A DNA stretch of 64,000 bases, taken from sequence record NC_100327.1; one strand, 5' to 3'. This DNA is from a phage. Shown in pieces: positions 2,492 to 36,704 of the stretch (its first letter is position 1; every line of letters begins with the position of its first letter). Both the position numbers and the translations under genes were made by a program. The notes beneath the pieces were generated by a model. It did no database searches. It was not told where the DNA came from and worked only from the letters and a program-made list of their open reading frames with translations.

Positions 2492-2550
2492 TGTGCCTCC
2501 GGGTTAAACAATCATGATAGTTATTTTACCAGATTTTGAGTTAATACGCA

Positions 2551-2583
2551 ATACAAACAAAAAGCCCCCGCCGAAGCGAGGGC
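2551..2583 (-). terminator. rho-independent terminator candidate after the fibre gene
   Basis: GC hairpin (gcccccgc cgaa gcgagggc) followed on the minus strand by a U-tract (complement of acaaacaaaaa). Confidence 0.5.
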
Positions 2584-2590
2584 AAAACAG

Positions 2591-5500
2591 TTACTTCAAT
2601 TTCTCTTGCAACCCAGTAACAACCTCTGTCAATTTTTTAACCTGCTCCTCAAGGGCGGTTATTTTATCATCCTGTTCCCTGCAAACCTGGACAAGCAAGC
2701 CTGTTACAGCTGCGTAATCCACGCTGTAGAATCTTTCCTCTGTTATCAAAGGAGTTCCATCTTGATCAGGGTTTGGGATTTCCTTTCTTTGCACGAAAGA
2801 GCTAACCGCTTCCGGCAGAGCTTCAAGCACTTCTTGTGCTATAACACCTGCATAAGGCATACCGTTCTCTTTAAGAGTGTAAGTATAACCCTTCATCTTC
2901 CGGATAGCTTCTAACGCATCAGGAATAACAGCTATGTTATCTTTCAGGTCTCTGTCAGAACTCTGATTGACAGATGTGCAATTCACAGCGCCGTTTACAG
3001 AAAGATATCTTGATTTATCCGGCAAGGTACCGCAATGCCATACCCAATTTGATTGAGACTCGTCAAGAACCTTAAACTCTAACACGTTTGGACGATCTCC
3101 TGTGCTGCCGTTACCCCAATAATACATATGGGCGGCATTAGCAGGCATGTTGCCACCGTTATTAGTAACATGGCTTCCAGAAATATACACCTTTAACTCT
3201 GGGGTTGGTATTTCCCCTTCTGGGGTTGTTCCTCCATACCTGAAGCTAACACCATTACCACCTGTTTGGGTCCACGGGCCCCAAGTGAAGACCTGTTTCA
3301 CCATATTCCCATAACGTGTGAATCTATCGCCATGGTAGGTAATATACTCTTGAACACACCCATTACCGTTATTGGCGTTATTTTGCAACACAATAAGTGT
3401 TCCGGCCTCATTTACGGGATAATGACGATCATATGTTGCATCATTATTTGCAGGCTGATGGTAAATACCTTCCCACAATCCGTGATAGGTGTTAAGGTCT
3501 GAAGAACCAAGACCTTGACCCCTGTGTTGCATGGCCTTATTCCAGGGATGGTGATTACCACCTTCTATAGACCTGGTGTATAAGTTACTTTGTCTGCCAG
3601 CAATCTGGAAAGCGTAGTTTCCCGAGAATCCTACAGATAAACCTCCTACAACCATGGTGTCTTGTGGACCGTTAACATTACCAGCCATTATTTTTGACGG
3701 GTTATTAGGCCCGAACTGGTTGTTCCAGTCTCCACCAGTATGACATACAAAACCACCTGGGGCTGAAAAAGTACCATCCTTATTGAAGTTGTAGAATCTA
3801 TGAGCTGTGCCCACAACATCTCGAACAATAACTTGACCAGCCTCTGGAGTAGACCTGAACTCTGCTTGACCTTTAAGGCCAGCACCATTACCGCATTTAG
3901 AGGTAAACGTGCCGTTAGTTAGATCCTCTGTTCCATCTGATGCACACTGGAATCCTGCGTTAGAGAATAGCGCCTTTCTAGGACCACTGTAGCACAAATA
4001 GTCAAAACCGTCAGCCCATAGCTCTACTTTAGGCATGTTCATTTTGCTCATTATCGCATAGCGTTCAGCAGTGCCTACATAGTGCCACTGTGTGCCGCCG
4101 CCAGTGTAGAACCCAGAGGTACCTTTGAAGTCAACAATAGGTCTGGTGTTGGTATTGTTATCTCCGAGAACAGCCAGATTTAAATCTGCTGACTGGAGAG
4201 GTGCAACGAACTTAACACCGTCCTGATTGTCTGTTACAGAGCCAACCTGGTAATCTTGCTCCCTGGTAAACACCTCGACAACATTTCTACTTGCGTATAT
4301 GCTGACAGGGAAAGCACGCGCCTCTGCATAGAAAGCAACATATTCTTGTTTACCCCTTGTTGGAGCAACCATCCCAAGAAGTGCTTTTTCATTCTGGTAG
4401 AAATTTACTACCCCGTAGAAAGAGTCTCCTCTGTCTGTCCAACCACCAGTTCTATAGTGACACTGTAAGGTAGCACAGTTCATAGGGTCATTTCCAGATG
4501 ACGATCTGGTAACTATGGTAATATCAGTACCAGTTGCTGGAGCATAGTACGGATCTGTTCTAACGATGATCGGGTAGTATTTCCCATCTTCCATCCCTGC
4601 GGTTCTTGGCAGTGTTAAGAAGTCTTTCACACCTGCTGCTATAGGAACTTTGAACAGATTCTGAGCATCTGCTAGAGTTGTAGCCCCGGTGCCACCTGCG
4701 GCTTGAGGTAGAGGTTCCCACTTGGCCTTCCGGTTGTTATAAACACCCCATTCCAGAGTGCCGTTACCGGATTCGTCCATCCCGCCATCCCAGATAACCA
4801 TCTTGGCGGCTTTCTTAGATCCCCAGAAGCCTCTTTCTGCTCCTGAACTACGTATCCACTCTCCAAGTCCCCAGTTTGTCAGCTGACCAGTAAGATCCCC
4901 AACCTGCATGTATTTAGGGCAGTCTAATACACCGTCTTCGCGGAAACCCAAATATCTATGAGTTTCAGATCCTTTTGCACCTTTGTGGAGGTGGATTGTC
5001 AACCAAGCCTTATTGTCGTTTCTTACCTCAGAGTAGATCCTATATCCATGCTCAAGGACACCGTCAGCGCTGTATTTGTCCCCGTTAACAATACCGGATG
5101 CTGACTTAACATCAGCAGAACTTTGAGACAGGTAAAGGTGCCCGAAGGTAGGAGAATTTCTAGACCCGAGACCGATGTGCGATCTAAAGGTATCATCGTT
5201 ACGAGGTCTAACCATCGGCTGCCATGCAGTCCACTGATTTGTGTTGGCCTGATAGGTTCTCAAATACCAAACATCTACGTTAGAGAATGGGTAGTATTCC
5301 TGACGACAACCTGTACCGCCGTTAGCATTGTTCTGCCAAACAATCAAGTGACCAGCACCAGAACCTGCAGGGTAACCATTTGCCTCAGTTGCATAAGCAG
5401 TCATCGGCTGGTAGTATACACCATCCTGATTACCAGTCAAGTTATTGATATTGAAATTTGGCTCAAGGGCTGCACGTTGCTTATAGAAAGCACCGATATT

Positions 5501-12518: not shown

Positions 12519-13430
12519 TTATTTCCCGTTAACTTTGTTGTAGTTTCCCTGCTCAGATGGGACTATGGTAGAAGGTCTTCCATATTCCTGATAATACCAA
12601 TCCGCAGCCGATTGGGTAACACCGTTTTCATCTGTCCACATCATAGACTTGTATGGCTGCCACTCCTCTGCAGCGTTTGTGGATGCAGTGTCTGCGAATG
12701 CTCCTGTGTCCCTCTTGTTACCTACGTTACTACCATTCTTACAGTCGTTGACAGCACCTTTTTGCTGGGTTTTGCCTACTTTCTTAGGATTGCTGTATAC
12801 AGTTGCATTAACAACCTTATTCAAGTAGAATGTGCGGAACTCTGTAAGCTCTACATCAAACACCATTGCAGCGCCTTCACCAACAGACTTGTTGGCAGAA
12901 AGACTGGTTATGATGTAGTTCTCAAGAAGTCTCTCCTCGGTAACCAAAGAAACCAACTGTCGCTTATTGATAATCTCAGTCAAAGCCTCCAATGCAGCGC
13001 CTGGTCGCATAGATGCTGCAGGGTTTTTAGAGTCAGTATTCCTGTCAATGTAGTTTTGCTCATAAATTATGTGTGGGGATGTATTTACCCTACCAGTAAA
13101 AGAAAATACACCATCTTTAATTACAGCGTGGTCTGACAGGGTAGATTTATCTTCCACCGCAAACCCAGTCTTATCAACAGAATGTTTGAAAGAGTAATTC
13201 TCAACCTGATCGAAGATAATGGCAAGATCGTTAGTAAAGTTTTTACCCTTCATCTCCGTATTGCGACCGCCATAGTTAAGACCGCTGACAAACATAGTGT
13301 ACTTTACATCGCTTTCAGTTTGCTGCTCTGCCTTTTCAGCCTTTGGAGATTTAACCTCTTGAGGCTTGTACAGGTCTTTTTCATCAACTATATTGCTTGG
13401 CATAACCTCTCCAGGACACTCCGATACCAT
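12519..13430 (-). CDS. hypothetical tail protein (post-tape-measure)
   Basis: 303-aa ORF directly downstream of the tape measure gene. Confidence 0.3.
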   Translation of the reverse strand: MVSECPGEVMPSNIVDEKDLYKPQEVKSPKAEKAEQQTESDVKYTMFVSGLNYGGRNTEMKGKNFTNDLAIIFDQVENYSFKHSVDKTGFAVEDKSTLSDHAVIKDGVFSFTGRVNTSPHIIYEQNYIDRNTDSKNPAASMRPGAALEALTEIINKRQLVSLVTEERLLENYIITSLSANKSVGEGAAMVFDVELTEFRTFYLNKVVNATVYSNPKKVGKTQQKGAVNDCKNGSNVGNKRDTGAFADTASTNAAEEWQPYKSMMWTDENGVTQSAADWYYQEYGRPSTIVPSEQGNYNKVNGK

Positions 13431-13507: not shown

Positions 13508-15844
13508 TTACCAAAGGTCGGTAGACATGAAGTTGATATCTTTATTGTTCTCCCACTCAAGTTTTGCATCAAATATTTTGTTAAACTCACCCTCATCTAT
13601 TGAAATCGTGATTTTCCCATCACTGATCTCTAAAGGTAGCATTTCCATAGTTCTTAATTGAGAAGCAAAACCAGGGCCACCCGGCAACGGAAGAGTCCCG
13701 CCCGGTAAGGTGTCCAAAGGATTAACAAACCCGTTACCTCCCGATATGATATCTTTGCGAATCATATCGCTGATAGTATCCAGCTGCTGATTTCTTTCAC
13801 TTAGTGGGTTGTAACGGTCATTAAATAATTCCCCGGCGCTTAGTATTGTACCGATAATGCCCAGCTTACCGAGCAGACCAACTTTGCCACCAGGTGTCTT
13901 GAGGCCACCTCCACCTTTTCCTGCCGGAGCTCCACCACCAGATCCTTCTGTAGTAGCGGCACCCGCTGCTCCAGCTGCACCTCTTAGAGAGTTAAGGAAT
14001 TTAAAGGTTTTTACAAGCATGGATGCCATGACAAAACCTTTTGTTAGGGCGTTGACTACCAGCATGATGGCAGCAGCAAACCCTGCCCATTTAGCATAGC
14101 TAAAGGTGTCATGAAGCTCTTCAGAATATTCCTTCGTCTTAGCTGTTATGAATCCCCATTTAATCCCCCATTCAAGGAAAAACATGCGGATCTTGACTAT
14201 AGTGTTGTTTAGTTCACCAACTACCCAGTTAAGGCCTCTCACAAACCCGCTAACAAAATCACCAGAGGCATCCCACACAAATTGCAGAGTCTCACCCGTG
14301 CGGATCAGTGTATAATAGAACTCTGTTAGTTCGTCAGACCAACGGGTGAACAGTTTCTGACGAGTCAGTTCGATGAAGGTTTTCAGTCTGTTTTCTGCCA
14401 GCACGTTAGACTTCTGCATTCTTTCATAACCAGCTGCAGATGCCTCGTTCATGTACTTAGCCACATACTTCATGATCTTGGCTGTTTTAACCTCACCTTT
14501 CTTCATCATGTCCATGAACTGATCCATGGAGAGTTCAGAAAGACCAAAAGCCTCTTTGGTGGCCTTGATAAAAGGTTCGTATGCACCAGGCAATGCTTCA
14601 GCAAGTTGTTGCTTCAGTTCTTCGGACATTACTTGTCCTTTCCCAAGCATCTGTTGGATTGCCATAATACCGCGCTGGTATTTTACCTCATCGGCACCAT
14701 AAGCAGCAGCATACTGTGAGTATGCAGAAAACAGCTCATGCACTTCCTGATTTGTCATCTGGTTTTTGGCGTTTACCGACATCTGGGCGTAACCTTGAAG
14801 ACCAGATTTGAGATCAAAACCAAGACGCATAGCCTCTTGCTGGACAAACGCAACCTCACTGTTGGCTTTGTTTGGATCTCCAGTAACAGCAGTAAGAGCA
14901 GCACTTGCCCCCTCCATCATGTGACCGGATCTGTTAACCGCAGCAAATCCAGAAAAAGCTGTATACGCAGCTGTTGCATTAATAACAGATCTACGTAAGT
15001 CTCTCATGGCATCGCCTAGTGTAAGCGTTTGGCTGGTGGCGCTTTTAAACCCAGACTGCAGCGCTGACAGGTGGGCGTTAAAGGTTGACTTCTTCATCTC
15101 CCCGCGAGCAAACCTGGACTCTAACTCTGAGTATCCTGGCAAGCTTCCACGGAATCCGGCCCCATACTTGGCAGAAAGTCTTATCGCGGAGTTGTAGAGG
15201 TGGGTTCTCCTTGCCTCACGATCCGACATAAGCCTATTATCCATACCAGCTTTACTGTCTCTTCTTAGCTGTCTATGATAACGATTCATAGCGGCTGTCT
15301 GAGCTTTCACAAGGTTAGGGTCGGAAGCTACACCACCCATATTAGGGTTACCGGGGATATATTTGAAAGCTTTGGCATTAGCCAGAACTCTTGCCTTAGG
15401 TGCCTTATAACCGCCGTAAGACACTGGTGCAGATTTGGCAGCCTTTTTGGCCTCTTTAGCTTGCTGCTGGTAGAACTTACGCATCCTAGCCATTTCTGGA
15501 TTTTTAGCGGTAAGATTACCTACAGCTTGTTTACGTCTCGCATTCTCCCTACGTTCTATTGCAGCCCTTACTGCAGCCTCTTTCTTGGCCTGTGCTACGC
15601 TCTCTCTGTGCAGTTTAGCATTTGCCTGAGATTGCTGTCTGGCAACCCTCTGCATTGTCTGCTGGGTTTTAACAGCTACCGCCTGCCATCTACTCATGGG
15701 GTTGGCTGAGTTAAAATCCTCGCCCAGTTTCCTGAACTCCCTCCCAATACTGCGAATTTTCTCTACAGCTTTTTTGTAGGAGGAGTTCTCTATCTCAAAG
15801 CCAATCTTGTTGACTGTTGTGGCAACTATTTTGTTTGTAGCCAT
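13508..15844 (-). CDS. tail tape measure protein
   Basis: 778 aa, downstream of a chaperone pair with a frameshift site; long helical/charged regions and a Gly/Ala-rich block (AAGAAGAATTEGSGGGAPAGKGGGG). Confidence 0.7.
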   Translation of the reverse strand: MATNKIVATTVNKIGFEIENSSYKKAVEKIRSIGREFRKLGEDFNSANPMSRWQAVAVKTQQTMQRVARQQSQANAKLHRESVAQAKKEAAVRAAIERRENARRKQAVGNLTAKNPEMARMRKFYQQQAKEAKKAAKSAPVSYGGYKAPKARVLANAKAFKYIPGNPNMGGVASDPNLVKAQTAAMNRYHRQLRRDSKAGMDNRLMSDREARRTHLYNSAIRLSAKYGAGFRGSLPGYSELESRFARGEMKKSTFNAHLSALQSGFKSATSQTLTLGDAMRDLRRSVINATAAYTAFSGFAAVNRSGHMMEGASAALTAVTGDPNKANSEVAFVQQEAMRLGFDLKSGLQGYAQMSVNAKNQMTNQEVHELFSAYSQYAAAYGADEVKYQRGIMAIQQMLGKGQVMSEELKQQLAEALPGAYEPFIKATKEAFGLSELSMDQFMDMMKKGEVKTAKIMKYVAKYMNEASAAGYERMQKSNVLAENRLKTFIELTRQKLFTRWSDELTEFYYTLIRTGETLQFVWDASGDFVSGFVRGLNWVVGELNNTIVKIRMFFLEWGIKWGFITAKTKEYSEELHDTFSYAKWAGFAAAIMLVVNALTKGFVMASMLVKTFKFLNSLRGAAGAAGAATTEGSGGGAPAGKGGGGLKTPGGKVGLLGKLGIIGTILSAGELFNDRYNPLSERNQQLDTISDMIRKDIISGGNGFVNPLDTLPGGTLPLPGGPGFASQLRTMEMLPLEISDGKITISIDEGEFNKIFDAKLEWENNKDINFMSTDLW

Positions 15845-19713: not shown

Positions 19714-20190
19714 TTATTTTTGCTGTCCAATTTTAAAGGTTGCAGATTCCAGCAGCACATCGTAATGCCGCATAGCCTCGTTGAAGCCCTTCTCTTGTGC
19801 CCACTGCTCACTAACAGTAGGGTTACTAAACTGACCAGCCTCAATAACAAACTGGATAGCTTTGGCCCCTGTGTCCCCCATCTGCTTAAGAATAGCCTCT
19901 GCACTTGATCCTCTAGCCATAGCTCTCAACAATTTTTCTGTCAAGGTCTGTAGTTGAGTGCTGTGAAATGCAAAAGCTGTCTCCATGAAATTGCGAACAG
20001 GCAGCCCGTTCCAACCGAAGTTGTGAATGGCTGCCAATGTTGCCATATTTAAGCCTGACGGGTGAGGTTCGTCATAAAAGCCGTAGGTTATTGTTTTACT
20101 TTCAAGTCTCACAAGTTCTTTGTAGAAGCGATCTAAACGCTTTAGGTTGAACCTTGTTTGACATTTAACCTTTAGCATTATATCCCTCAC
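19714..20190 (-). CDS. hypothetical virion protein
   Basis: 158-aa ORF in the head-tail connector region. Confidence 0.3.
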   Translation of the reverse strand: MRDIMLKVKCQTRFNLKRLDRFYKELVRLESKTITYGFYDEPHPSGLNMATLAAIHNFGWNGLPVRNFMETAFAFHSTQLQTLTEKLLRAMARGSSAEAILKQMGDTGAKAIQFVIEAGQFSNPTVSEQWAQEKGFNEAMRHYDVLLESATFKIGQQK

Positions 20191-20911: not shown

Positions 20912-21757
20912 TTATGCCAGTGCAGCCTCAAAATCTTTCATCATATTTTGGAAAGTTTTTGCCTTACTTAAGATAACACCGTGCTCTTTGGCGAAGGTTT
21001 GGAGTGCATCTTTTGAACCACTTTTGTCATCTTCGTTGTTAAGAGCTGCGGCCTGCTGCAGTATGGCATCAACATCACTGCGAGAAGATCTTGATTCTTG
21101 TGCCTGTTCAGGATCCTGCTCAGTGCCTCCCGGTGCAGCCGGATCTGGGGATTCTCCACCCCCACCACCTGGTTCAGTAGGACCTACAGGTGGCTCCGGC
21201 TCTGGTTCAGGCAGTGGAGCTACCGTAGAAACCAGCCCAAGATTTACAACCTGAGAACGTTTCTTAGGCCACTCGATGGTGAAAGTTTGGGTATCTTCTT
21301 CATAAACAATGTTGCATTGCTCATCGTTTATGGTCACTTTTTTAGGCATACCTTCAGGGTCCCACAGATGGCCCTCTGCCACGGAAACTTTGAAAGCAGC
21401 ATCTACCTCTTTAAACACTGACGGAGTGAGTGTAATATTGACATCCCCGCTTTGCAGTGTTAAAGTGCTTTCATCAAGGTTCTCTGTGAAGAACAGAAGA
21501 ATAACACCCATACGGATAGTTGAAATACCAGTATCAATTGGCAGGCCTGTGTGTTTTGCAATCTTCTCGAAGAAGTCTACAATCGTTCTACATGGATAGT
21601 GAACACTGCCGATAACGAATTCTGTTGGTGGCAGCAGGGCTGATAAACCAACATTGATTTCTGGATTATATTGTGCTAAAAATTGATAAAAACTTAACTG
21701 ATTGTTGAAAACTCTTAATAGAGGATCATACTCAACTGGGTAGACGGTTCGCTTCAC
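20912..21757 (-). CDS. hypothetical virion protein with Pro/Glu-rich linker
   Basis: 281-aa ORF directly downstream of the capsid gene; PEPEPEPPVGPTEPGGGGG low-complexity linker. Confidence 0.3.
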   Translation of the reverse strand: MKRTVYPVEYDPLLRVFNNQLSFYQFLAQYNPEINVGLSALLPPTEFVIGSVHYPCRTIVDFFEKIAKHTGLPIDTGISTIRMGVILLFFTENLDESTLTLQSGDVNITLTPSVFKEVDAAFKVSVAEGHLWDPEGMPKKVTINDEQCNIVYEEDTQTFTIEWPKKRSQVVNLGLVSTVAPLPEPEPEPPVGPTEPGGGGGESPDPAAPGGTEQDPEQAQESRSSRSDVDAILQQAAALNNEDDKSGSKDALQTFAKEHGVILSKAKTFQNMMKDFEAALA

Positions 21758-21839: not shown

Positions 21840-22850
21840 TTATTCACCACCTTTCAGAGTTGCTTTAACAACCAGCTCTGGACGGGTGTTAACTGCCAGC
21901 ATGGAAGTTTCAGATTCAATCTTCTCTTCACGCAGGTATGCAGAGTGTTTATACCACATGTACAGTTCCTGTGCTGGAGTGTTTGCTTCGTTAACATCGT
22001 CTGCCGGAGCAAAGTGCAGCTGGAACATCTGATCAATACCCATCGGCAGAATGCGAGCTTCTTTCTTAGGAATATTGCCAGAGATATCTTCGATAAAGGT
22101 GATACCTTTATGCTCAAACACACGGTATACGCTGTCTTGACCGCCAGCACCCAGACGGCGACGCAGAGGTTCCTGAGCAGAGCCGTAATAGGTATATGCC
22201 AGTTCTACCAGCGGGTGATGGGTAATAGCACTGAAGAACTCTGGTGAGCACAGGGCTACAATACGATAGCCAGCTGCGTTATCGCCAGCTTGCAGCGCGA
22301 TGTGCAGACGAGCTTCTTCCAGAACCTCCATAGGATCCTGATCTGCTTTTGCAGGGTCAATCTCAACAGACTTCTGAGACACACCCCACAGAGTGTAGTA
22401 GTCATACTGACAGGTTGTGTCACCAGGTGCATAGGATTTACCCAGAATAGCCTGGAACAGCGCTTTCTCACGCAGTGCTTCATGAGAAACACGGATACGG
22501 CGAACAACGCGGGTTACTACATCCTGAACAGTTTTCGGAGCATCTGGAGTGAAGTAACGACGGAAGTTCTGAACATCTGCTGCGGTGATGCCTTTGTCCA
22601 GAGGGAAGAACGGGATGTTCAGGTTTTTAACCTGAGCACGTTCACTACCAACGTAGTTACGCTCACCACCACGACGGCGTGCCGGAATATCGGTTACAAC
22701 TTCATCAACACGCTCAATCTGAGCAATTGTTGAGGTGCCGAGACGGGTTTCGAACAGATCCATACCAGTAATCAGTCGGAATTGACGCGGAACAAGGTCC
22801 AGAGTAGCACCTAAATCAACAATGCCAAATTCATCTTTACGAGTAATCAT
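21840..22850 (-). CDS. major capsid protein
   Basis: 336 aa; position after portal, scaffold and decoration genes; followed by a strong terminator; size typical of HK97-fold coat proteins. Confidence 0.6.
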   Translation of the reverse strand: MITRKDEFGIVDLGATLDLVPRQFRLITGMDLFETRLGTSTIAQIERVDEVVTDIPARRRGGERNYVGSERAQVKNLNIPFFPLDKGITAADVQNFRRYFTPDAPKTVQDVVTRVVRRIRVSHEALREKALFQAILGKSYAPGDTTCQYDYYTLWGVSQKSVEIDPAKADQDPMEVLEEARLHIALQAGDNAAGYRIVALCSPEFFSAITHHPLVELAYTYYGSAQEPLRRRLGAGGQDSVYRVFEHKGITFIEDISGNIPKKEARILPMGIDQMFQLHFAPADDVNEANTPAQELYMWYKHSAYLREEKIESETSMLAVNTRPELVVKATLKGGE

Positions 22851-30944: not shown

Positions 30945-31021
30945 TGGTCTCCACGGAGTGATTCGAACACTCGACCTCCTGATCCCAAATCAGGCGCTCT
31001 ACCAAGCTGAGCTACGCGGAG
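30945..31021 (-). tRNA. tRNA-Pro (anticodon UGG)
   Basis: Manual fold: acceptor CTCCGCG/CGTGGAG with C1-G72, anticodon loop TTTGGGA, T-loop TTCGAAT, encoded CCA. Confidence 0.8.
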
Positions 31022-31032
31022 TATTTATTATT

Positions 31033-31107
31033 TGGTGGCCCTGGGTGGAATTGAACCACCGTCTGGCGATTATGAGTCGCTTGCTTGAACCTTCCAGCTA
31101 CAGGGCC
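31033..31107 (-). tRNA. tRNA-Met (anticodon CAU; could be Ile-lysidine type)
   Basis: Acceptor GGCCCTG/CAGGGCC, anticodon loop CTCATAA, T-loop TTCAATT, encoded CCA. Confidence 0.7.
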
Positions 31108-31108
31108 A

Positions 31109-31184
31109 TGGTGCTGATGGCAGGACTTGAACCCGCAACCTATTGATTACAAATCAATTGCACTACCGATTGTGCTACATCAGC
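31109..31184 (-). tRNA. tRNA-Thr (anticodon UGU)
   Basis: Acceptor GCTGATG/CATCAGC, anticodon loop TTTGTAA, T-loop TTCAAGT, encoded CCA. Confidence 0.8.
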
Positions 31185-31189
31185 AAAAA

Positions 31190-31288
31190 GGTGCTAGGTG
31201 ATGGAATCGAACCACCTATGTATTCAACGACTACCTCGTCTATTTTCAGGATTAAAAATCCTCGCCCTTGCCAAAGGGCTTACCTAGC
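31190..31288 (-). ncRNA. non-canonical tRNA-like RNA (99 nt; identity unresolved)
   Basis: 7-bp acceptor-like helix GCTAGGT/ACCTAGC, D-like hairpin, canonical T-arm (GGTGG TTCGATT CCATC), but ~20 nt too long with a GGATT-TTT-AATCC hairpin in place of a normal anticodon arm. Confidence 0.4.
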
Positions 31289-31295
31289 TCAGTAT

Positions 31296-31382
31296 GTTGA
31301 CCATGTTGCTAGTCGGCGATGACGACTGTAACATTTGATAATCCGGTTCTGCTTCCGACTTTCGCTTAATTACAAGGTCAAC
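31296..31382 (-). ncRNA. structured small RNA candidate closed by a 7-bp terminal helix (not a canonical tRNA)
   Basis: GTTGACC...GGTCAAC terminal inverted repeat with internal hairpins (AGTCG-N7-CGACT); sits inside the tRNA operon between the element above and tRNA-Ser. Confidence 0.3.
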
Positions 31383-31386
31383 AATG

Positions 31387-31477
31387 TGGCGGAGAGTAAT
31401 GGAATCGAACCATCATCGAGTCATCCTCAACGGGACGGTTTTCAAGACCGCTTGAGCACCATTGCTCCCTACCCTCC
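31387..31477 (-). tRNA. tRNA-Ser (anticodon UGA), class II with long variable arm
   Basis: Anticodon arm CGGTCTTGAAAACCG, long variable arm, T-loop TTCGATT, encoded CCA; 91 nt. Confidence 0.75.
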
Positions 31478-31591
31478 TTTATAAATTATACTGATAATGA
31501 CACTGATTTTCGAGCAGTTAGTGACTAGTATAAACGACGATAAATATCAATGCCATTATCTGTATTATTTATGCATCTAAAAATATAAATT

Positions 31592-31678
31592 TGGTGGGGA
31601 GTGGTGGAGTCGAACCACCCGAGTCGCAATGACAATAGATTTACAGTCTACACCGCTACCTCTACGGGATAACTCCCC
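31592..31678 (-). tRNA. tRNA-Tyr (anticodon GUA), class II
   Basis: Anticodon arm GTAGACTGTAAATCTAT, long variable arm, T-loop TTCGACT, encoded CCA; 87 nt. Confidence 0.8.
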
Positions 31679-31682
31679 AATT

Positions 31683-31757
31683 TGGCACCCCGTACTGGAC
31701 TCGAACCAGTGTCAACGGCTTAGAAGGCCGCTGCTTTATCCACTAAGCTAACAGGGC
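31683..31757 (-). tRNA. tRNA-Arg (anticodon UCU)
   Basis: D-arm GCTTAGTGGATAAAGC, anticodon loop CTTCTAA, T-loop TTCGAGT, encoded CCA; acceptor has two G-U pairs. Confidence 0.75.
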
Positions 31758-31815
31758 ACTGGGTGGCTTTCTTTTACACCTTAGCCGCCAGAAAAGGTGG
31801 GAGACCATGTTTACA

Positions 31816-31844
31816 ATATTACACTGTTAAGCAAAGTTTGTCAA
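31816..31844 (-). promoter_or_regulatory. sigma70-like promoter candidate for the tRNA operon
   Basis: Minus strand TTGACA (31844-31839), 17-nt spacer, TAATAT (31821-31816), about 55 nt upstream of tRNA-Arg. Confidence 0.45.
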
Positions 31845-31853
31845 GAAAATATT

Positions 31854-32192
31854 TTAGCTATTGCTAACAGGTTGTATTTCTGTGGTAAATGGCATAAAAG
31901 GTGCTGGTTTTTCAGCCTCTTCTACTACCACCTCTTCCTCTTCACCAAACATCTCATCATATTCTTCCTGCATTCGGTCTGCCTTATCAAGAACATACTC
32001 TGCAATGCTTTGACGAATATTTTGTTTGGTTTTCGGGTCCAACATCAGCTCTCTTAGAACTTTGTGAGCTTCTGGAACCATCGCTATAAAAGATTCCTTC
32101 ATATCGAGGATGTTCTTCTCTAGCTGAATGGCGTTGGACTCCTCTTTCAGAGGTCTGCCTCTACGGCGACGCTTTTTAGTTGTATCCGCCAT
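31854..32192 (-). CDS. hypothetical small protein with basic AT-hook-like N-terminus and acidic C-terminus
   Basis: Track ORF trimmed to MADTTKKRRRRGRP...; upstream part of the track ORF overlaps a GC-rich structured non-coding region. Confidence 0.35.
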   Translation of the reverse strand: MADTTKKRRRRGRPLKEESNAIQLEKNILDMKESFIAMVPEAHKVLRELMLDPKTKQNIRQSIAEYVLDKADRMQEEYDEMFGEEEEVVVEEAEKPAPFMPFTTEIQPVSNS

Positions 32193-32540
32193 GTTTCCTC
32201 CATTATCACGTGATAGGTGGATTTTATCATAGCAAATACTGATTGTCAAGTTCGCCGCAGGGTGGTATTCCCTGCGACTTGTCCAGCGTCCTGGACCAGC
32301 AAGACCCAACAAGTGGGTTTTCCAGCTATACCCATTACCGCGCACAGGCTCGACCTTATTACAGGTTGGCTGGGGTCACATCGTCATGTGCTGGCTGCCC
32401 CTACCATTTTAAGTGTGGTGCACTATCAAGCCCTCTAAGGGGAACTCAGTCTTCTCCGAACCCTGTTTCAAAGCATCCAGAGATAAAGCCATCAAATTCA
32501 TCTTTAAATTGGATATTCATCATGATACACGAAAACAACC

Positions 32541-32783
32541 TCATTGTAAAGCACAAATAAATAAAACATACTTAATTTGTTTGTTATCAGGCTCAGGGTA
32601 GAAGTAGAAGATCTTGCTATCACCGATCTGAACACCACCATCCCAACAACATAGCCCATAACCTGTATTCATACAAGCTAAGTCGTTGGCAAAATCTATT
32701 GCATCATCCAGTGCACGAAATTCACCTTCATCTTCTAAATAATCCTCATTCATGGAACGAAAAACGAGCTTAACCTTAAACAT
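32541..32783 (-). CDS. hypothetical protein
   Basis: 80-aa ORF in the minus-strand operon. Confidence 0.3.
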   Translation of the reverse strand: MFKVKLVFRSMNEDYLEDEGEFRALDDAIDFANDLACMNTGYGLCCWDGGVQIGDSKIFYFYPEPDNKQIKYVLFICALQ

Positions 32784-32859
32784 AGCATTACCTGTAGACC
32801 TCGTAAGTTAAAATTGCATCACATCATATTGCAGATCTTATCAGGTAACACTATTTTTG

Positions 32860-33069
32860 TCAACAGATTCCGGCCTTATCCTTCCTGTCTGCGTATTCTT
32901 TAATCGCAACCTCATCTGCATTAGTGACCAGGTCTTCAAAGTAACTCTCAAGCTCCTCGTCAATGTCAGGAGACCAGCTCTTTTTCCTGTCAGTGTGAAT
33001 TGCAGACTTGTTGAACTTATTACAGTTCTTTGCTACCGGGTTGTTCATTAAGCGCTCCTCAGCGTTCAT
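32860..33069 (-). CDS. hypothetical protein
   Basis: 69-aa ORF overlapping the stop of the upstream gene. Confidence 0.3.
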   Translation of the reverse strand: MNAEERLMNNPVAKNCNKFNKSAIHTDRKKSWSPDIDEELESYFEDLVTNADEVAIKEYADRKDKAGIC

Positions 33070-33637
33070 AGTAAATTTTATTTAACATTACCTCATCTTT
33101 TGCAGAAAGAATACCGAGATATGCATCACCGAATCTACCTGCAACAACCTCTGCATGATACATCACTTCGTTAATATCGTCAAGAGTGATAACTGGATGA
33201 CCGTATCTCTCTGAGTATTGTCTCAGAGTGCGATGTAGAGAGTCATCATCATAGGCAGACTTTTTAATATCACAAACACGACGAATAGCCTTGATGTCGA
33301 AAAAACCTGTGCGATACCACCCAAGAAAAAGGTTTCGTGCAGTGTCAACATCTACATTGATACCATCAAGAACCTTATCTACAAGATAGCTGTCATCCTT
33401 TGGACCAGCGTCCTTAGTGCGAATGTAGTTGCCATCTTTTCCAGGCGACATCTCCTTCTCATCCCCAACCTGCATGCCATCATTTGGCGGTGTTAGCCAC
33501 TTATCCGGATGCTTACGATCACGAGCGTTAGAATGATTACGCTGGAAACCGGGCTTCCACTTGAAAGTTTTCTCCATCTGTTCTTCATTCTGATAACGTT
33601 TTGCAATCTTTTCACGGTCATCTTTGCGTGAACCCAT
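33059..33637 (-). CDS. hypothetical protein (first gene of the minus-strand late operon)
   Basis: 192-aa ORF immediately downstream of the large non-coding block. Confidence 0.35.
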   Translation of the reverse strand: MGSRKDDREKIAKRYQNEEQMEKTFKWKPGFQRNHSNARDRKHPDKWLTPPNDGMQVGDEKEMSPGKDGNYIRTKDAGPKDDSYLVDKVLDGINVDVDTARNLFLGWYRTGFFDIKAIRRVCDIKKSAYDDDSLHRTLRQYSERYGHPVITLDDINEVMYHAEVVAGRFGDAYLGILSAKDEVMLNKIYYER

Positions 33638-34140
33638 AGCTGCCTCCTCTTCAAGTTATAGAAAAACTCACTGTATCGCTTTGTAACGAGCTTTTCTATC
33701 AAACTGGTGCGATTGCATTACCTGGTATAGTTTATATAGCTGTGGAGCGATTTAGGGGCCTTCTTGTCAGTTTCCACACATAAACTTCATCCAAGCTCGC
33801 GCGGGAGACTCTCAACCGACTCCTTACGGCGCTGGCAAGCTTTCGTCGGTGGTCCACATCAGTGCTCGGCCTTTGGCCTGCGCTATCGCTTCGCTCCCAC
33901 ACATGTTAACAGACCTGCATGTATGAACTTCTGTTATTGTGTGCACCAAGGAGGCCCGGCATCTCGCCCCTCGTAGGCGAGTGCCAATGAAGGGCCGACA
34001 CTGCCCATAGTAAGTAATAAATTTAAAACATGGTACTTAGGATCTAGTATATTCTACATAAGTTAAGTATATGTACTTAGTACCATAAGTACTAGATCTT
34101 TTATTTTTTATTATTTAGTTATTTTAGTTATATTCTTTAT

Positions 34141-34250
34141 GTGTCCGTATCACGGACAGTTAGTGTCCGTATTACGGGCAGATGTGTCCGCGTGACGGAC
34201 AGTAGTGTCCGTATCACGGACAGTTAATAGTATCCGTTCCATGACGAACA
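34141..34250. repeat. array of palindromic iteron-like repeats (TGTCCGT-N3-ACGGACA) with ~21-bp phasing
   Basis: Copies at 34143-34159, 34165-34181, 34185-34201 and 34206-34222, plus a degenerate copy at 34231-34250; adjacent AT-rich tract at 34085-34140. Confidence 0.6.
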
Positions 34251-34297
34251 TAAAACATACGAATCCTTATAGTACAGATATTTAAGTTTTTACTGGT

Positions 34298-34648
34298 CTA
34301 ACCAGTTGTTGACATCCGAATAACTTCTTCTGGTGGCAAAACTTTGGAAAATGTGCATCTTTTACCTCTCCCTTGTGTGGATGTTTCAACCACTCCTGCA
34401 CATTCTAAAGTTTTAACGCACGCTGCTGCTTTTGTTTTCTTTATCCCAACATCTGCTGCAATTTTCCTTGTGCTTGGTGTGAAGCGTGAATTTCCTCCAA
34501 GCTTATACCAGTTGTGCAGGTAGCAGTATACGATCTTGTCATACAAGTCAAGAACAACAACCTCCCCAGTTGTGTCATTCAAAACTTTTGACATAGATAG
34601 TATTTCAAGGGGGACTTTAAGATATAGCAGCTTATCCCCATCTTTCAT
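34298..34648 (-). CDS. putative helix-turn-helix DNA-binding protein
   Basis: 116-aa ORF; RKIAADVGIKKTKAAACVKTLECAGVVE segment looks like an HTH; gene ends ~50 bp from the iteron array. Confidence 0.35.
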   Translation of the reverse strand: MKDGDKLLYLKVPLEILSMSKVLNDTTGEVVVLDLYDKIVYCYLHNWYKLGGNSRFTPSTRKIAADVGIKKTKAAACVKTLECAGVVETSTQGRGKRCTFSKVLPPEEVIRMSTTG

Positions 34649-34695: not shown

Positions 34696-35250
34696 TTACT
34701 CCCTGCTGTCAATATCAAAACTCATTGCAATACGGTATGCCTCTTCTAATGGTAAGAGTCTCCCCCACACATCCCAACCGACATCAAGCTGCCTGCCAAA
34801 CAACTGTTGTGTGGTTCCGTGAGCATGACCGAACAGTTGGACTGATCCGTGAGGCTTTCTGTTCCACTTTGCAAACTGGTAATGGCTCATACAGATCAAA
34901 TTCTTGTTGTGGCGAAGCTCGTAATAATCTACAACCTCATGACCGAACTCTTTCATAATTCTGACAGTCGTCCTTGTGTCATGGTTGCCACGAACAAGAA
35001 TAATATGTCCGTTCAACATATTTAGAATATCTGGAAGTAAGTTGTTGATATTCTTATCATTAGTGCACGCAATATCTCCCAAGTGGAACACAGTGTCTGC
35101 AGGTGACACAACAGAGTTCCACTCGGCGATGATTCCCGCATTCATACTGTCAAGATTGTGATCATACTGAGATCTGTGTTTTTGACATGAATCAAACTCC
35201 ATGACCCGCTGGTGGAGAAAGTGTGTGTCGCTTGTTACAAAGTATTTCAT
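34696..35250 (-). CDS. calcineurin-like metallophosphoesterase (putative 2',3'/3'-phosphatase partner of the kinase)
   Basis: Motifs DTHF, GDIA and GNHD; start placed at MKYFVTSDTHF (ATG 35250, GAGGA RBS) rather than the track start, which overlaps the kinase gene. Confidence 0.6.
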   Translation of the reverse strand: MKYFVTSDTHFLHQRVMEFDSCQKHRSQYDHNLDSMNAGIIAEWNSVVSPADTVFHLGDIACTNDKNINNLLPDILNMLNGHIILVRGNHDTRTTVRIMKEFGHEVVDYYELRHNKNLICMSHYQFAKWNRKPHGSVQLFGHAHGTTQQLFGRQLDVGWDVWGRLLPLEEAYRIAMSFDIDSRE

Positions 35251-35257
35251 ACATTCC

Positions 35258-35668
35258 TCATTTAAGTTTAATGCAGTTTTTAAGCTGGCGTTCCATACGA
35301 TCCACAACCTTGTCTGGAACATCATGAATGCTTTTATTACCGTGGCGGTTTTCAACCACGATCACGGTATAACTATACCCATGACTGATTGCCATGTCAA
35401 CATATTCCTGCACATGTTTTTCTTTTGTAAACGTATTACTTACCACGATACGGTCGTATCCCATACGCATCATATCTTCTACGTTATCTTTGCACCATTT
35501 TGCTGCGAGTGTTACTTTACTTGCATCCCAGTTGTAATTGCCGTCATCGTCATACCAGAACATGTCGTTCTCAAAATGTGGATACAGACCCTCTAAAGAT
35601 AGCGCATTTGCCAGTGTTGATTTGCCAGACCCTGGTAGACCACGCACGATATATAGCATTTTAGACAT
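35258..35668 (-). CDS. polynucleotide 5'-kinase (P-loop kinase domain, T4 Pnk N-terminal-like)
   Basis: Start at ATG 35668 with GGAGGG RBS; Walker A GLPGSGKST; size and motifs resemble the kinase half of T4 Pnk. Confidence 0.6.
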   Translation of the reverse strand: MSKMLYIVRGLPGSGKSTLANALSLEGLYPHFENDMFWYDDDGNYNWDASKVTLAAKWCKDNVEDMMRMGYDRIVVSNTFTKEKHVQEYVDMAISHGYSYTVIVVENRHGNKSIHDVPDKVVDRMERQLKNCIKLK

Positions 35669-35768
35669 AGTGACCCTCCGTTTTAATTTCAACGGTAGTA
35701 TACCTAACTGTTTTGTTAATTTCAAGTGTTGACACTAGGTTATTTGTGTGGCAGGATAGACTGACAAA

Positions 35769-36704
35769 ATGACAAATGAGGAACATATAATGAAGTATTT
35801 TAATGCAGACGACCTAGTTGACAAAGGTCTTGTAACCAGTAGGTATTACCCAGATCTCGGGTTAAAGATCTATAAATATGCTAGAAAAGTATTTTACAAC
35901 AATTTATGGCATTTGTCCCCTCGTTTACTGGAGTGCCGAGGCATTGTTGTAGGTAATGAAGGAAATGTTGTGGCATGGCCCTTCACAAAAGTGTTTAACT
36001 TGGGAGAAAACTCCACCAACCTGCCTGACAATAAGCTTGTGACTGCGGTAGAGAAAAAGAACGGATTCCTTGGTGTGGTATCATCTCATAAAGGTGACCT
36101 ATTGTTCTCAACAACCGGGTCTCTTGATTCTCCATATTGTAACCTTGCAAAGGAAACCATCCAAGAGCAATGTGGTAATTTAGATCTTATCAAGAAGGTT
36201 ATGGGCAATGAAAACATGACATTCATGTTTGAAATTTGTCACCCTTCAGATCCGCATATTGTTCAAGAAGACCATGGCGCATATTTGATAGGTTGCAGAT
36301 ATAATGATTCTGGAATAATGCTACCAGAAGCCGCTTTAGATGGGATTGCCAAATACCTTGGTGCAAAACGTCCTCACACTGTGCGTGAAATTCCGTTCAG
36401 CTATGCAAAAGAGTTAGCTGCAGAAACAAGAGGTGAAGGATATATGATTCGTAAGCCTTACTACCCTTATGATCTGCAGTTGAAGATCAAGTCTCCATAC
36501 TATCTGGCACGAAAGGCCGTAATGAGGGGTAAAGCTTGGAAGATTTGGGATGATGATATCTTTAAACGTGTTGACGAAGAGTTTTACGGCATGGTAAACT
36601 TCATTCGTAACAACTACACAGAGGATGTATGGAACTGCCTCCTGGAGCAGGAACGCCGTGAGATACTTGACTGCTATTTCCACAACGAGGACTATATGCA
36701 ATGA
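35769..36704 (+). CDS. RNA ligase 1 (T4 RnlA-like)
   Basis: Conserved blocks shared with T4 Rnl1 as I recall them (LLECRGIVV, KVFNLGEN, nucleotidyl-transferase lysine motif EKKNGFLG); sits opposite the kinase/phosphatase genes. Confidence 0.6.
   Translation: MTNEEHIMKYFNADDLVDKGLVTSRYYPDLGLKIYKYARKVFYNNLWHLSPRLLECRGIVVGNEGNVVAWPFTKVFNLGENSTNLPDNKLVTAVEKKNGFLGVVSSHKGDLLFSTTGSLDSPYCNLAKETIQEQCGNLDLIKKVMGNENMTFMFEICHPSDPHIVQEDHGAYLIGCRYNDSGIMLPEAALDGIAKYLGAKRPHTVREIPFSYAKELAAETRGEGYMIRKPYYPYDLQLKIKSPYYLARKAVMRGKAWKIWDDDIFKRVDEEFYGMVNFIRNNYTEDVWNCLLEQERREILDCYFHNEDYMQ

What the first reader, a model, noticed from the sequence alone, without database searches (positions are those of the whole stretch)
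33755..34015. GC-rich, hairpin-dense non-coding segment in a ~660 bp gene-free block
The interval between the minus-strand gene starting at 33637 and the gene ending at 34298 has no convincing ORF. Its central ~250 bp is markedly more GC-rich than the surrounding phage DNA and contains many short inverted repeats. The only track ORF there (33764..33976, plus strand) has Arg/Ser/Pro-rich junk composition. A structured non-coding RNA or a horizontally acquired fragment would both explain this.
Basis: seen in the sequence. Interest (0 to 1): 0.5.

Follow-up and report, generated by a model that had tools for sequence, protein, structure and literature searches.

The report
Conserved folded DNA beside phage origin
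The GC-rich stretch is a conserved non-coding element beside what looks like the replication origin of an rV5-like coliphage, and small E. coli plasmids that carry rV5-like capsid and tail genes have copies of it, so it may be a handle by which those plasmids exploit the phage.

Summary
The window is an rV5-like coliphage (Vequintavirus). The 660-bp gene-free block is real. Its core, 33755-34015, has the highest GC of the whole 64 kb (0.563 against 0.436), and no reading frame is conserved there.

The 'hairpin-dense' claim is not above chance for the phage copy alone. No Rfam family matches.

The block reads as an origin-like module: a small winged-helix 'replication initiation' protein, four 21-22-bp iteron-like repeats, a 125-bp tract of 19% GC, then the GC-rich element.

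Two sub-modules, A and E, are as conserved as the flanking genes. They recur at about 85% identity in roughly 13-kb circular E. coli plasmids. Between phage and plasmid the loops are unchanged while the stems carry compensatory changes. In the plasmids they belong to a variable array of hairpin modules punctuated by CCCACACA, again beside AT-rich DNA and iterons.

These plasmids encode homologues of rV5 capsid, tape-measure, baseplate and neck proteins, so they look like undescribed satellites.

Best guess (0.35): an origin accessory element that works as folded single strands, a priming or replisome-entry signal. A structured origin-directed RNA is nearly as likely (0.3). The active strand and any transcription remain unresolved.

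The parts
33059..33637 (-). Left neighbour gene (192 aa, nom_69 homologue). Function unknown; found only in Vequintavirus.
   Evidence: ORF list; annotation of phage nom; phrog_12226, unknown function; found only in the same ~119 phage records.
33638..33712 (.). Highly conserved leader or left flank. It contains a 12-bp inverted repeat, 33658-33669 with 33688-33699.
   Evidence: Inverted repeat I10. Nucleotide diversity 0.021, lower than the flanking coding DNA. Conserved even in the divergent UViG L065.
33713..33794 (.). 'Start block' (ATTGCA...AGTTnAT...ATTTAGGGG) that aligns with the plasmid copies, plus a 5' segment. It holds CCACACA at 33774-33780, and GTTTCCACA at 33770-33778 matches 8 of 9 positions of the DnaA-box consensus. 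This is the least constrained part of the element.
   Evidence: Alignments A1 and A2. Diversity 0.096, about 3-6 times that of modules A, B' and E. The motif is not repeated elsewhere in the window. An extended -10 (TGgTATAGT, 33722-33730) was seen by eye; it is not conserved in Aya, the UViG or the plasmids.
33795..33860 (.). Module A:
- conserved GCGCGGGAGnCTCT (33799-33812)
- 6-bp stem, 33815-33820 with 33845-33850
- invariant 24-nt loop (33821-33844)
- CCACAT (33854-33859)
   Evidence: Phage stem ACCGAC/GTCGGT against plasmid stem GCTGCC/GGCAGC: three of the six pairs change on both sides, while the loop is identical apart from one A/C position. Diversity 0.032. About 85% identity to the plasmids.
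33861..33903 (.). Module B': GGCC-TTT-GGCC hairpin (33868-33878) with flanking pairs, ending in CCCACACA (33896-33903).
   Evidence: RNAalifold helix at columns 117-140 of A4, invariant apart from two changes on one side only. Diversity 0.016, the lowest in the block. CCCACACA position.
33904..33947 (.). Module D'. The outer stem pairs CACACA (33898-33903, inside the CCCACACA listed with module B') with TGTGTG (33938-33943). The inner hairpin pairs TAACAG (33907-33912) with CTGTTA (33931-33936).
   Evidence: MFE structures. An 18-nt deletion (33920-33937) in Murica, TP5 and MaxTheCat removes the inner hairpin but leaves CACACATG...CATGTGTG pairing. The AACAG/CTGTT helix is shared with plasmid module D.
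33948..34003 (.). Module E, a two-tier hairpin:
- outer stem GGCCC (33953-33957) with GGGCC (33992-33996)
- inner stem 33958-33968 with 33976-33985, with one bulged base
- 7-nt loop
   Evidence: Phage GGCATCTCGCC/GGCGAGTGCC against plasmid GTCATCTCTCC/GGAGAGTGAC: two pairs change on both sides. Nearly invariant in 14 phages. Diversity 0.029. 87% identity to CP020521.
34016..34140 (.). AT-rich tract (GC 0.19) with a long AT-rich palindrome (~34031-34098) followed by a T-run. It is a candidate DNA-unwinding region, and on the plus strand it also looks like a terminator.
   Evidence: Composition. The long hairpin shows up as a chance-level miRNA-precursor match. Diversity 0.025. Sequence read directly.
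34141..34226 (.). Four iteron-like direct repeats spaced 21-22 bp apart. Each contains a dyad (GTGTCCGTatcACGGACAg).
   Evidence: Repeat family D1. Annotated as repeat_region in phage nom. In UViG L065 they are replaced by unrelated repeats, together with a 28%-identical variant of the adjacent protein.
34298..34648 (-). Right neighbour gene (116 aa, winged-helix HTH). It is the putative iteron-binding replication initiator.
   Evidence: phrog_12838 'replication initiation protein' (5e-80), with weaker hits to phrog_8102 and phrog_428. Pfam HTH_36 and DUF6945 fall just below their cut-offs. RefSeq records name it 'replication initiation protein'. Found only in the same 118 records.

Best explanation
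The GC-rich segment is a cis-acting accessory element of the phage's replication origin. It acts as folded single strands rather than as a protein-coding or ordinary duplex site.

Proposed mechanism:
1. The 116-aa winged-helix protein binds the four iterons.
2. The adjacent 19%-GC tract melts.
3. As unwinding spreads leftwards, modules A, B', D' and E fold into hairpins.
4. Their invariant loops and C/A-rich linkers (CCCACACA) are recognised by a priming or replisome-loading protein, in the manner of single-strand initiation (ssi) signals next to plasmid origins.
5. The ~13-kb plasmids carry their own initiator and iterons for maintenance, but keep and multiply the same modules. On rV5 infection the helper's replication machinery would then amplify them.

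Shown:
- The segment is non-coding.
- Modules A, B' and E are conserved.
- Stems A and E are supported by compensatory changes.
- The element sits in an origin-like context in the phage, in a divergent phage and in the plasmids.
- It is shared with plasmids that encode rV5-like virion proteins.

Inferred:
- That the locus is the origin.
- That the active form is single-stranded DNA.
- That the job is priming or loading.
- That the plasmids are satellites.
For: 1. Context. The order is initiator-like gene, four dyad-containing 21-22-bp repeats, a 125-bp tract of 19% GC, then the element.

2. Same order in the plasmids. They have the array, AT-rich repeats, iterons, and a Rep-like protein that hits phrog_428 and phrog_391, 'replication initiation O-like'.

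3. Module swap. The 137-kb UViG L065 has a 28%-identical initiator variant and unrelated repeats, but keeps the element and its left flank. The element is therefore independent of initiator specificity.

4. Constraint. Diversity among 12 phages is 0.032 for A, 0.016 for B' and 0.029 for E. It is 0.048 and 0.032 in the flanking coding DNA, and 0.096-0.116 in unconstrained spacers.

5. Structure. Three of six pairs in stem A and two pairs in stem E change on both sides between phage and plasmids, while the loops stay identical. The 18-nt deletion keeps the outer stem of D'.

6. Plasmid arrays fold far better than shuffles: z = -4.6 (DNA) and -4.9 (RNA), and 5-8 perfect hairpins against ~1.6 expected in three of the arrays, with 0 of 200 shuffles reaching that.

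7. No strand bias. The 24 distinct perfect hairpins hold 150 Watson-Crick pairs. Past the stem ends, the next pair is a G-T wobble on the plus strand in 4 cases and on the minus strand in 6. Ten of the 24 loops are triloops, including GGA and GTA, and module C contains CCGAAGG. GNA mini-hairpins are described at the G4 origin, in RSF1010 ssiA (CCGAAGG) and in N4 promoters (PMC13037366). G4ori is three stem-loops with a CTG on their 3' side (PMC6783573).

8. The plasmids encode homologues of rV5 virion proteins: baseplate 50% identity, neck 45%, capsid 24%, tape measure 26%. Outside coding DNA, the only blastn matches to the window are modules A and E, plus one 35-nt match in the plasmids' unannotated 2097-3069 region.
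Against: - No experiment places the rV5 origin here. The 'replication initiation' label is a PHROG and RefSeq name, and the Pfam hits fall just under their cut-offs.
- The modules actually present in the phage (A with a 24-nt loop, E with a bulge and internal loops) look more RNA-like than the neat triloop hairpins, which occur only in the plasmids.
- The phage copy alone does not fold better than shuffles.
- Within 14 phages there is not one compensatory pair.
- The CTG start motif of DnaG-type signals follows only about half of the plasmid modules, on the minus strand, and is not conserved in the phage.
- Terminator-like hairpins with T-runs follow the array on the plus strand in all three contexts (sequence). 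That fits a transcript at least as well.
Confidence: 0.35

Rival explanations
1. A structured non-coding RNA of roughly 270-370 nt. It would be transcribed either on the plus strand towards the AT-rich region (an origin-activating or primer transcript, as at T4 oriF/oriG or ColE1), or on the minus strand as part of the leader of the nom_69 operon. The invariant loops would be recognition sites for a protein or for another RNA. The plasmids would use the same modules to sense or interfere with the helper.
For: - The island is GC-rich and non-coding in a 44%-GC phage.
- Loops are invariant while stems covary.
- Modules A and E have bulges and large loops, as RNA motifs often do.
- An extended -10 (TGgTATAGT, 33722-33730) lies 25 nt upstream in most phages.
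- Hairpins with U-tracts follow the array on the plus strand in the phage (34031-34118), in UViG L065 (CCTTC-ATGGGA-GAAGG followed by a T-rich run) and in the plasmids (module F is flagged as terminator-like).
- Helix B' keeps a U-G pair on the plus strand, and one C-to-U change there preserves pairing on that strand only.
Against: - No Rfam match, even at E = 10.
- The candidate promoter is lost in Aya, the UViG and the plasmids, and the consensus scan finds no plus-strand promoter.
- The strong plasmid promoter for the adjacent operon lies downstream of the array, so the array is not in that leader.
- G-U evidence conflicts: stem A favours the minus strand, B' favours the plus strand.
- Wobble extensions are balanced, 4 against 6.
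- No GNRA or UNCG tetraloops were seen, while triloops are common.
- No transcriptome of a Vequintavirus was found in the library.
Confidence: 0.3
2. A packaging recognition (pac) site for the rV5 terminase. The plasmids have no annotated terminase, so they copy and multiply it to be packaged by the helper.
For: - rV5-like phages package by the headful and are circularly permuted, and no pac site has been mapped (PMC8407724 and PMC13211470).
- The plasmids have no annotated terminase or portal.
- They share almost no other non-coding DNA with the phage.
- An 8-bp motif repeated 3-5 times at irregular spacing resembles multi-site pac regions such as that of P1 (from my own knowledge).
Against: - The element is next to iterons, not next to the terminase genes.
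- CCCACACA is weakly represented in the phage itself: one perfect copy plus degenerate ones.
- Compensatory stem changes are not expected for a duplex binding site.
- The plasmid's 161-aa HTH protein could be its own small terminase; this was not resolved.
- No deposited genome starts at this position (coordinates).
Confidence: 0.12
3. A duplex-DNA regulatory region (operators or an enhancer) for the nom_69 operon or for the initiator. In this reading the palindromes are protein-binding sites and not folded structures.
For: - The element lies upstream of the nom_69 operon and of the plasmid operon promoter.
- GAGnCTC in module A is a palindrome with a free central base, A, G or T.
- The stems are Watson-Crick on both strands.
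Against: Each palindrome has a different sequence, and stems change by compensation while the loops stay fixed. That is the reverse of what a dimeric DNA-binding site predicts. The motifs do not recur elsewhere in the window.
Confidence: 0.1
4. A functionless remnant of past recombination between phage and plasmid.
For: Sequence is shared with a mobile element. The phage copy has no significant fold of its own.
Against: - It is present in all 118 Vequintavirus records.
- Modules A, B' and E are as conserved as coding DNA and 3-6 times more conserved than neighbouring spacers.
- The compensatory changes imply selection on pairing.
Confidence: 0.08

Closest known systems
Single-strand initiation (ssi) signals beside plasmid origins, for example RSF1010 oriV (iterons, GC-rich stretch, AT-rich stretch, ssiA/ssiB)
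   Same: The order is iterons, AT-rich tract, hairpin-forming segment. The hairpins are independent of initiator specificity. A CCGAAGG mini-hairpin is present in plasmid module C, the same heptamer described in ssiA (PMC13037366).
   Different: - There is no pair of signals on opposite strands within one large inverted repeat.
- The phage copy lacks the mini-hairpins.
- The element is about 250 nt with four dissimilar modules, not about 40 nt.
- No RepB'-type primase was looked for.
- Function is untested.
Phage G4 origin of complementary-strand synthesis (G4oric) and G4-type ssi signals
   Same: Plasmid modules C and G are sets of three adjacent stem-loops. On the minus strand about half of them are followed on the 3' side by CTG (CTGTGTGGG), the layout described for G4ori (PMC6783573).
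   Different: Three-hairpin modules are absent from the phage copy. The CTG is not conserved. There is no sequence similarity. rV5 is a double-stranded DNA phage with its own replication genes.
Origin-directed primer or activator transcripts (ColE1 RNA II, T4 oriF/oriG transcripts; from my own knowledge)
   Same: A structured segment sits directly upstream of an AT-rich unwinding region, with terminator-like features at the junction.
   Different: There is no RNA I/RNA II match in Rfam, no conserved promoter, and transcription has not been demonstrated.
cis sites shared by satellites and their helpers (P4 and P2 cos, cos-bearing PICIs; from my own knowledge)
   Same: A short non-coding segment is almost the only non-coding DNA-level homology between a small element without an annotated terminase and a large phage whose virion proteins it partly mirrors.
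   Different: Here the helper is virulent and the element is a plasmid. The shared site lies at an origin-like locus and is structured. Its role (packaging, replication or sensing) is unknown.

Membership tests
Any Rfam RNA family (release 15) | A covariance-model score at or above the family's gathering threshold | tested here: not met
   Across the whole window, only the tRNA family reached its gathering score, 6 matches at 30948-31757. In 31700-34400 at E up to 10 there are only chance-level hits: rli43 at 21.9 bits against a threshold of 100, and mir-154 at 19.3 against 52, both over the AT-rich palindrome.
Iteron-type replication origin | An adjacent gene for a DNA-binding initiator | tested here: inconclusive
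   The 116-aa protein hits phrog_12838, phrog_8102 and phrog_428, all named 'replication initiation protein'. Pfam HTH_36 scores 24.5 against a cut-off of 25, and DUF6945 scores 27.4 against 28. These are names, not experiments.
Iteron-type replication origin | Three or more direct repeats of about 20 bp with helical spacing | tested here: met
   Four copies at 34141-34226, spaced 22, 21 and 21 bp. In L065 they are swapped together with the protein variant.
Iteron-type replication origin | An AT-rich unwinding region next to the repeats | tested here: met
   34016-34140 has GC 0.19, against 0.436 for the window.
Iteron-type replication origin | Replication starts here | not testable with these tools
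   This needs marker-frequency, 2D-gel or nascent-strand data from infected cells.
G4-type ssi signal | Three stem-loops with a 5'-CTG-3' start site on their 3' side (PMC6783573) | tested here: inconclusive
   Plasmid modules C and G have three hairpins, and a CTG follows about half of the modules on the minus strand. The phage copy has neither feature conserved.
G4-type ssi signal | Supports priming on SSB-coated single-stranded DNA by primase alone | not testable with these tools
   This needs an M13 origin-less complementation assay or an in vitro priming assay.
RSF1010-type ssiA/ssiB | Two ~40-nt signals on opposite strands, forming a large inverted repeat beside the AT-rich region | tested here: not met
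   No large inverted repeat spans the element. The modules are dissimilar and colinear.
ColE1-type RNA II / RNA I | Homology to RNA I, and a promoter a fixed distance upstream of the origin | tested here: not met
   No Rfam hit. No conserved promoter.
Protein-coding gene | A reading frame conserved among relatives, with variation concentrated at third codon positions | tested here: not met
   The frame is broken in 11 of 14 relatives. Variable sites fall 15/16/18 by codon position. Relatives carry 1-nt indels.
Terminase pac site | A packaging series starts at the site | not tested
   This needs read-start analysis of virion DNA. The literature reports only circular permutation and headful packaging.

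The most novel reading that the evidence does not exclude
The element is the cis-acting handle of an undescribed helper-satellite pair. In this reading, a family of ~13-kb autonomously replicating E. coli plasmids encodes its own variants of rV5 capsid, tape-measure, baseplate and neck proteins. These plasmids parasitise virulent rV5-like phages by carrying an expanded, modular copy of the phage's origin-flanking hairpin element, and so capture the helper's replication (or packaging) machinery.
Probability: 0.3. Interest if true: 0.8.

Novelty: new variant of a known kind. Interest (0 to 1): 0.55.

Why it matters
rV5-like phages are widely used in therapy and biocontrol cocktails. Yet I found no description of their origin of replication, their non-coding elements or any parasites in the searchable literature.

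If this locus is the origin, it gives a concrete starting point for studying replication in this genus. The element would then be an accessory signal that can be tested directly.

The link to the plasmids matters more. They would be plasmid-borne satellites of a virulent coliphage that bring their own capsid and tail parts. That combination is not covered by the satellite families I know (P4-like, PICI, cfPICI, PLE, PICMI). The shared element would show which helper function they hijack.

Tried and rejected
- Rfam, at gathering and relaxed thresholds: nothing.
- tRNA or tmRNA in the block: none.
- Coding potential: rejected.
- Host origin: no E. coli chromosome matches; only plasmids match.
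- Wider homologues:
  - The 18-mer of loop A gave 59 hits in bacterial genomes, all chance matches with unrelated flanks.
  - A 25-base loop pattern in metagenomes gave only three rV5-like contigs (one is the same contig as L065), a 39.8-kb contig carrying the rV5-type locus, and two plasmid-like contigs.
  - IMG/VR gave one divergent rV5-like contig.
  - No plasmid capsid homologue was found in IMG/VR.
- The nom_69 and nom_70 proteins occur only in Vequintavirus, so no deeper comparison was possible.
- A scan for triple CCCACACA arrays in viral contigs returned only unrelated tandem repeats and CRISPR arrays whose repeat happens to contain CCCACACA. A CRISPR-repeat mimic was considered and dropped for lack of any repeat-level match.
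- CCCACACA and the 'start block' are not enriched elsewhere in the window, so they are not a general phage promoter or site.
- CCCACACA as a DnaA box: only the CACA core fits. One 8-of-9 box (GTTTCCACA) is lost in Aya and the UViG.
- Strand assignment from G-U pairs, MFE asymmetry and loop types: contradictory or neutral.
- Covariation within the genus: none.
- Sigma-70 promoter and terminator scans: nothing convincing in the phage.
- Literature on rV5 satellites, non-coding RNAs or transcriptomes: nothing found.

Full report
**What the window is.** The block 33640-34300 is 100% identical to Escherichia phage nom and 88-100% identical to 118 phage records, all Vequintavirus (rV5-like). In those records the block lies between a 192-aa hypothetical gene and a 116-aa 'putative transcriptional regulator / replication initiation protein'. 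Both are on the minus strand. Nothing but repeat regions is annotated in between.

**Checking the observation.**
- The gene-free block is real.
- 33755-34015 has GC 0.563, the highest 261-nt window in the 64 kb (mean 0.436, sd 0.034).
- The plus-strand ORF 33764..33976 is not a gene. Its frame is interrupted in 11 of 14 relatives. Variable sites are spread 15/16/18 over the codon positions. Relatives carry 1-, 3- and 18-nt indels.
- The claim of many inverted repeats does not hold for the phage copy alone. MFE z-scores are -1.2 to -2.0 on either strand, with RNA or DNA parameters. It has two perfect hairpins with stems of at least 5 bp, against 1.4 expected.
- No Rfam family matches.

**The rest of the block.** To the right of the GC-rich core lie a 125-bp tract of 19% GC containing a long AT-rich palindrome (34016-34140) and four direct repeats of 21-22 bp, each with an internal dyad (34141-34226).
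- The adjacent 116-aa protein is a winged-helix protein. It falls in PHROG families named 'replication initiation protein', and its Pfam HTH_36 and DUF6945 hits sit just below threshold.
- Both flanking genes and the block occur only in Vequintavirus.
- A divergent 137-kb rV5-like metagenomic contig (L065/L081) keeps the GC-rich element and its left flank. To the right it has a different AT/CT-rich tract, unrelated repeats, and a 143-aa protein only 28% identical to the 116-aa protein.
- This is the pattern of an initiator-plus-iteron specificity swap. It shows that the GC-rich element is a separate unit.

**Homologues outside phages.** A sensitive blastn against complete E. coli genomes finds no chromosomal match. 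It does find two sub-segments at about 85% identity in circular plasmids of about 13 kb (one 39.6-kb record holds three copies). PLSDB and metagenomes add a few more.

In these plasmids the segments belong to a 250-350-nt array inside a non-coding region of 2.2 kb or more. The array is a series of hairpin modules, each ending in CCCACACA. I labelled the modules A to H. Module content differs between plasmids: A-B-C-D-E, A-B-D-F, A-B-C-F, A-B-H-G-F, A-B-C-H-G-F and so on. The phage carries A-B'-D'-E, colinear with plasmid CP020521.

**Evidence for structure.**
- Module A has a 6-bp stem. It reads ACCGAC/GTCGGT in phages and GCTGCC/GGCAGC in plasmids, so three pairs change on both sides. The stem encloses a 24-nt loop that is identical apart from one A/C position.
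- The inner stem of module E differs by two double changes, and its loops are unchanged.
- In three phages an 18-nt deletion removes the inner hairpin of D' and leaves an 8-bp outer stem.
- The plasmid arrays fold much better than shuffles (z = -4.6 to -4.9 on the plus strand, -3.4 on the minus strand). In three of the arrays there are 5-8 perfect hairpins against about 1.6 expected.
- Modules C, G and a variant in CP134895 share one architecture, three short hairpins followed by CCCACACA, built from different sequences.

**Constraint in the phage.** Among 12 Vequintavirus sequences, nucleotide diversity is 0.032 (A), 0.016 (B') and 0.029 (E). The flanking coding DNA has 0.048 and 0.032. The two least constrained spacers of the block have 0.096-0.116. 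Within the genus there is no compensatory pair at all, because the element is simply conserved.

**Which strand, and RNA or DNA?** The evidence does not decide.
- One stem-A variant (Aya, UViG) keeps pairing only on the minus strand. Helix B' has a U-G pair and one C-to-U change that keep pairing only on the plus strand.
- The 24 distinct perfect hairpins contain 150 Watson-Crick pairs. Beyond the stem ends, wobble extensions are balanced, 4 on the plus strand and 6 on the minus.
- Ten of the 24 hairpin loops are triloops, including GGA and GTA. Module C contains CCGAAGG. I saw no GNRA or UNCG tetraloops.
- Symmetric Watson-Crick stems and GNA-type triloops suit DNA hairpins. Such mini-hairpins are described at the G4 origin, in RSF1010 ssiA (CCGAAGG) and in N4 promoters (PMC13037366). 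G4ori is three stem-loops with a CTG on their 3' side (PMC6783573).
- On the other hand, the modules the phage itself carries (A and E) have large loops, a bulge and internal loops, which is more RNA-like.
- On the plus strand the array is followed by a hairpin and a T/U-run in the phage, the UViG and the plasmids.
- A plus-strand extended -10 lies just upstream in most phages, but is not conserved in Aya, the UViG or the plasmids.
- The plasmids' strong operon promoter lies downstream of the array.

**The plasmids.**
- They are 13.2-13.7 kb and typed non-mobilizable. They have their own iterons and a 303-aa protein with weak hits to 'replication initiation (O-like)' PHROGs.
- Four of their proteins are homologous to proteins encoded in this window: a baseplate protein (50% identity, 12717-13340), a neck or tail-completion protein (45%, 19750-20172), the major capsid protein (24%, 21855-22838) and the tape-measure protein (26%, 14114-15832).
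- No terminase or portal is annotated.
- Outside coding DNA, their blastn matches to the window are modules A and E, plus one 35-nt match in the plasmids' unannotated 2097-3069 region.
- They therefore look like satellites of rV5-like phages. I found no description of such elements in the library.

**Interpretation.** The best-supported statement is that the GC-rich segment is a conserved, non-coding, partly structured cis element. It flanks an origin-like module, and a family of putative satellites has copied and expanded it.
- For mechanism I favour an origin accessory signal that works as folded single strands, a priming or replisome-entry site of the ssi kind (0.35).
- A structured origin-directed or leader RNA is nearly as likely (0.30).
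- A pac site (0.12), a duplex regulatory region (0.10) and an inert recombination remnant (0.08) are less likely, for the reasons given under the rival explanations.
- rV5-like phages package by the headful with circular permutation, and no pac site has been mapped (PMC8407724 and PMC13211470).

**Verdict.** The element belongs to no described family. By its layout it is a new variant of origin-associated structured elements. Its main interest is the link to the plasmid family.

Noticed in passing
L005 (NZ_CP020521.1, whole 13,689-bp plasmid); also CP148565, CP035869, CP134895, CP178698, CP043822, and metagenome contigs L078 and L080: This is a family of ~13-kb circular, non-mobilizable E. coli plasmids. 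They encode homologues of rV5 major capsid, tape-measure, baseplate and neck proteins, plus their own Rep-like protein and iterons. No terminase or portal is annotated. They look like undescribed plasmid-borne satellites of virulent rV5-like phages. CP043822 (39.6 kb) holds three copies of the unit.
   Followed up: partly
L005 2560-2630, against window 21062-21096: A consensus sigma-70 promoter (TTGACA, 17-nt spacer, TATAAT) in the plasmid points into a 35-nt stretch that is 89% identical to the phage. There it is antisense to the phage's 281-aa gene next to the capsid gene (20912-21757, minus strand). It could be an antisense RNA aimed at the helper, or the remnant of a homologous gene. An unannotated open frame of 140 codons lies on the plasmid's minus strand in the same region.
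   Followed up: partly
window 32195-32445: A second unannotated gap of about 250 bp with raised GC (~0.52) lies between two small minus-strand genes near the tRNA cluster. It contains several local hairpins. It has no Rfam hit, no significant fold (z = -1.3 and -1.5), and no similarity to the plasmids.
   Followed up: partly
window 31190-31288 (minus strand): An odd 97-99-nt tRNA-like gene sits in the tRNA cluster. ARAGORN gives no amino acid and a 4-base anticodon. Rfam scores it 35.5 bits with a 26-nt insertion. Other records call it tRNA-OTHER or tRNA-Lys(TTT).
   Followed up: no
window 34696-36704: An RNA-repair-type gene set lies immediately right of the origin-like block and close to the tRNA cluster. 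It comprises a metallophosphoesterase, a polynucleotide-kinase-like P-loop protein, and a gene annotated 'RNA ligase and tail attachment protein' in phage nom. Gene orientation switches at about 35750, where cumulative GC skew is at its minimum.
   Followed up: no
phage records MG0656xx (hits H12, H13, H35-H40 and others): Eighteen GenBank records named 'Campylobacter phage' carry this Vequintavirus locus at 97-99% identity. They look like rV5-like coliphage genomes under a different host label.
   Followed up: no
L065 2200-2345: The divergent rV5-like contig replaces the GTGTCCGT...ACGGACAG iterons with a different set of dyad repeats (ATCTGATGCAAATATGTATCAGA). Next to them is a 143-aa protein 28% identical to the 116-aa initiator-like protein. 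This is an apparent swap of an origin-specificity module within the genus.
   Followed up: partly
CP057073.1 (PLSDB, 137,565 bp): A record deposited as an E. coli plasmid matches the element as an rV5-like phage does, and it has a phage-sized length. It is probably a Vequintavirus genome assembled from a culture.
   Followed up: no
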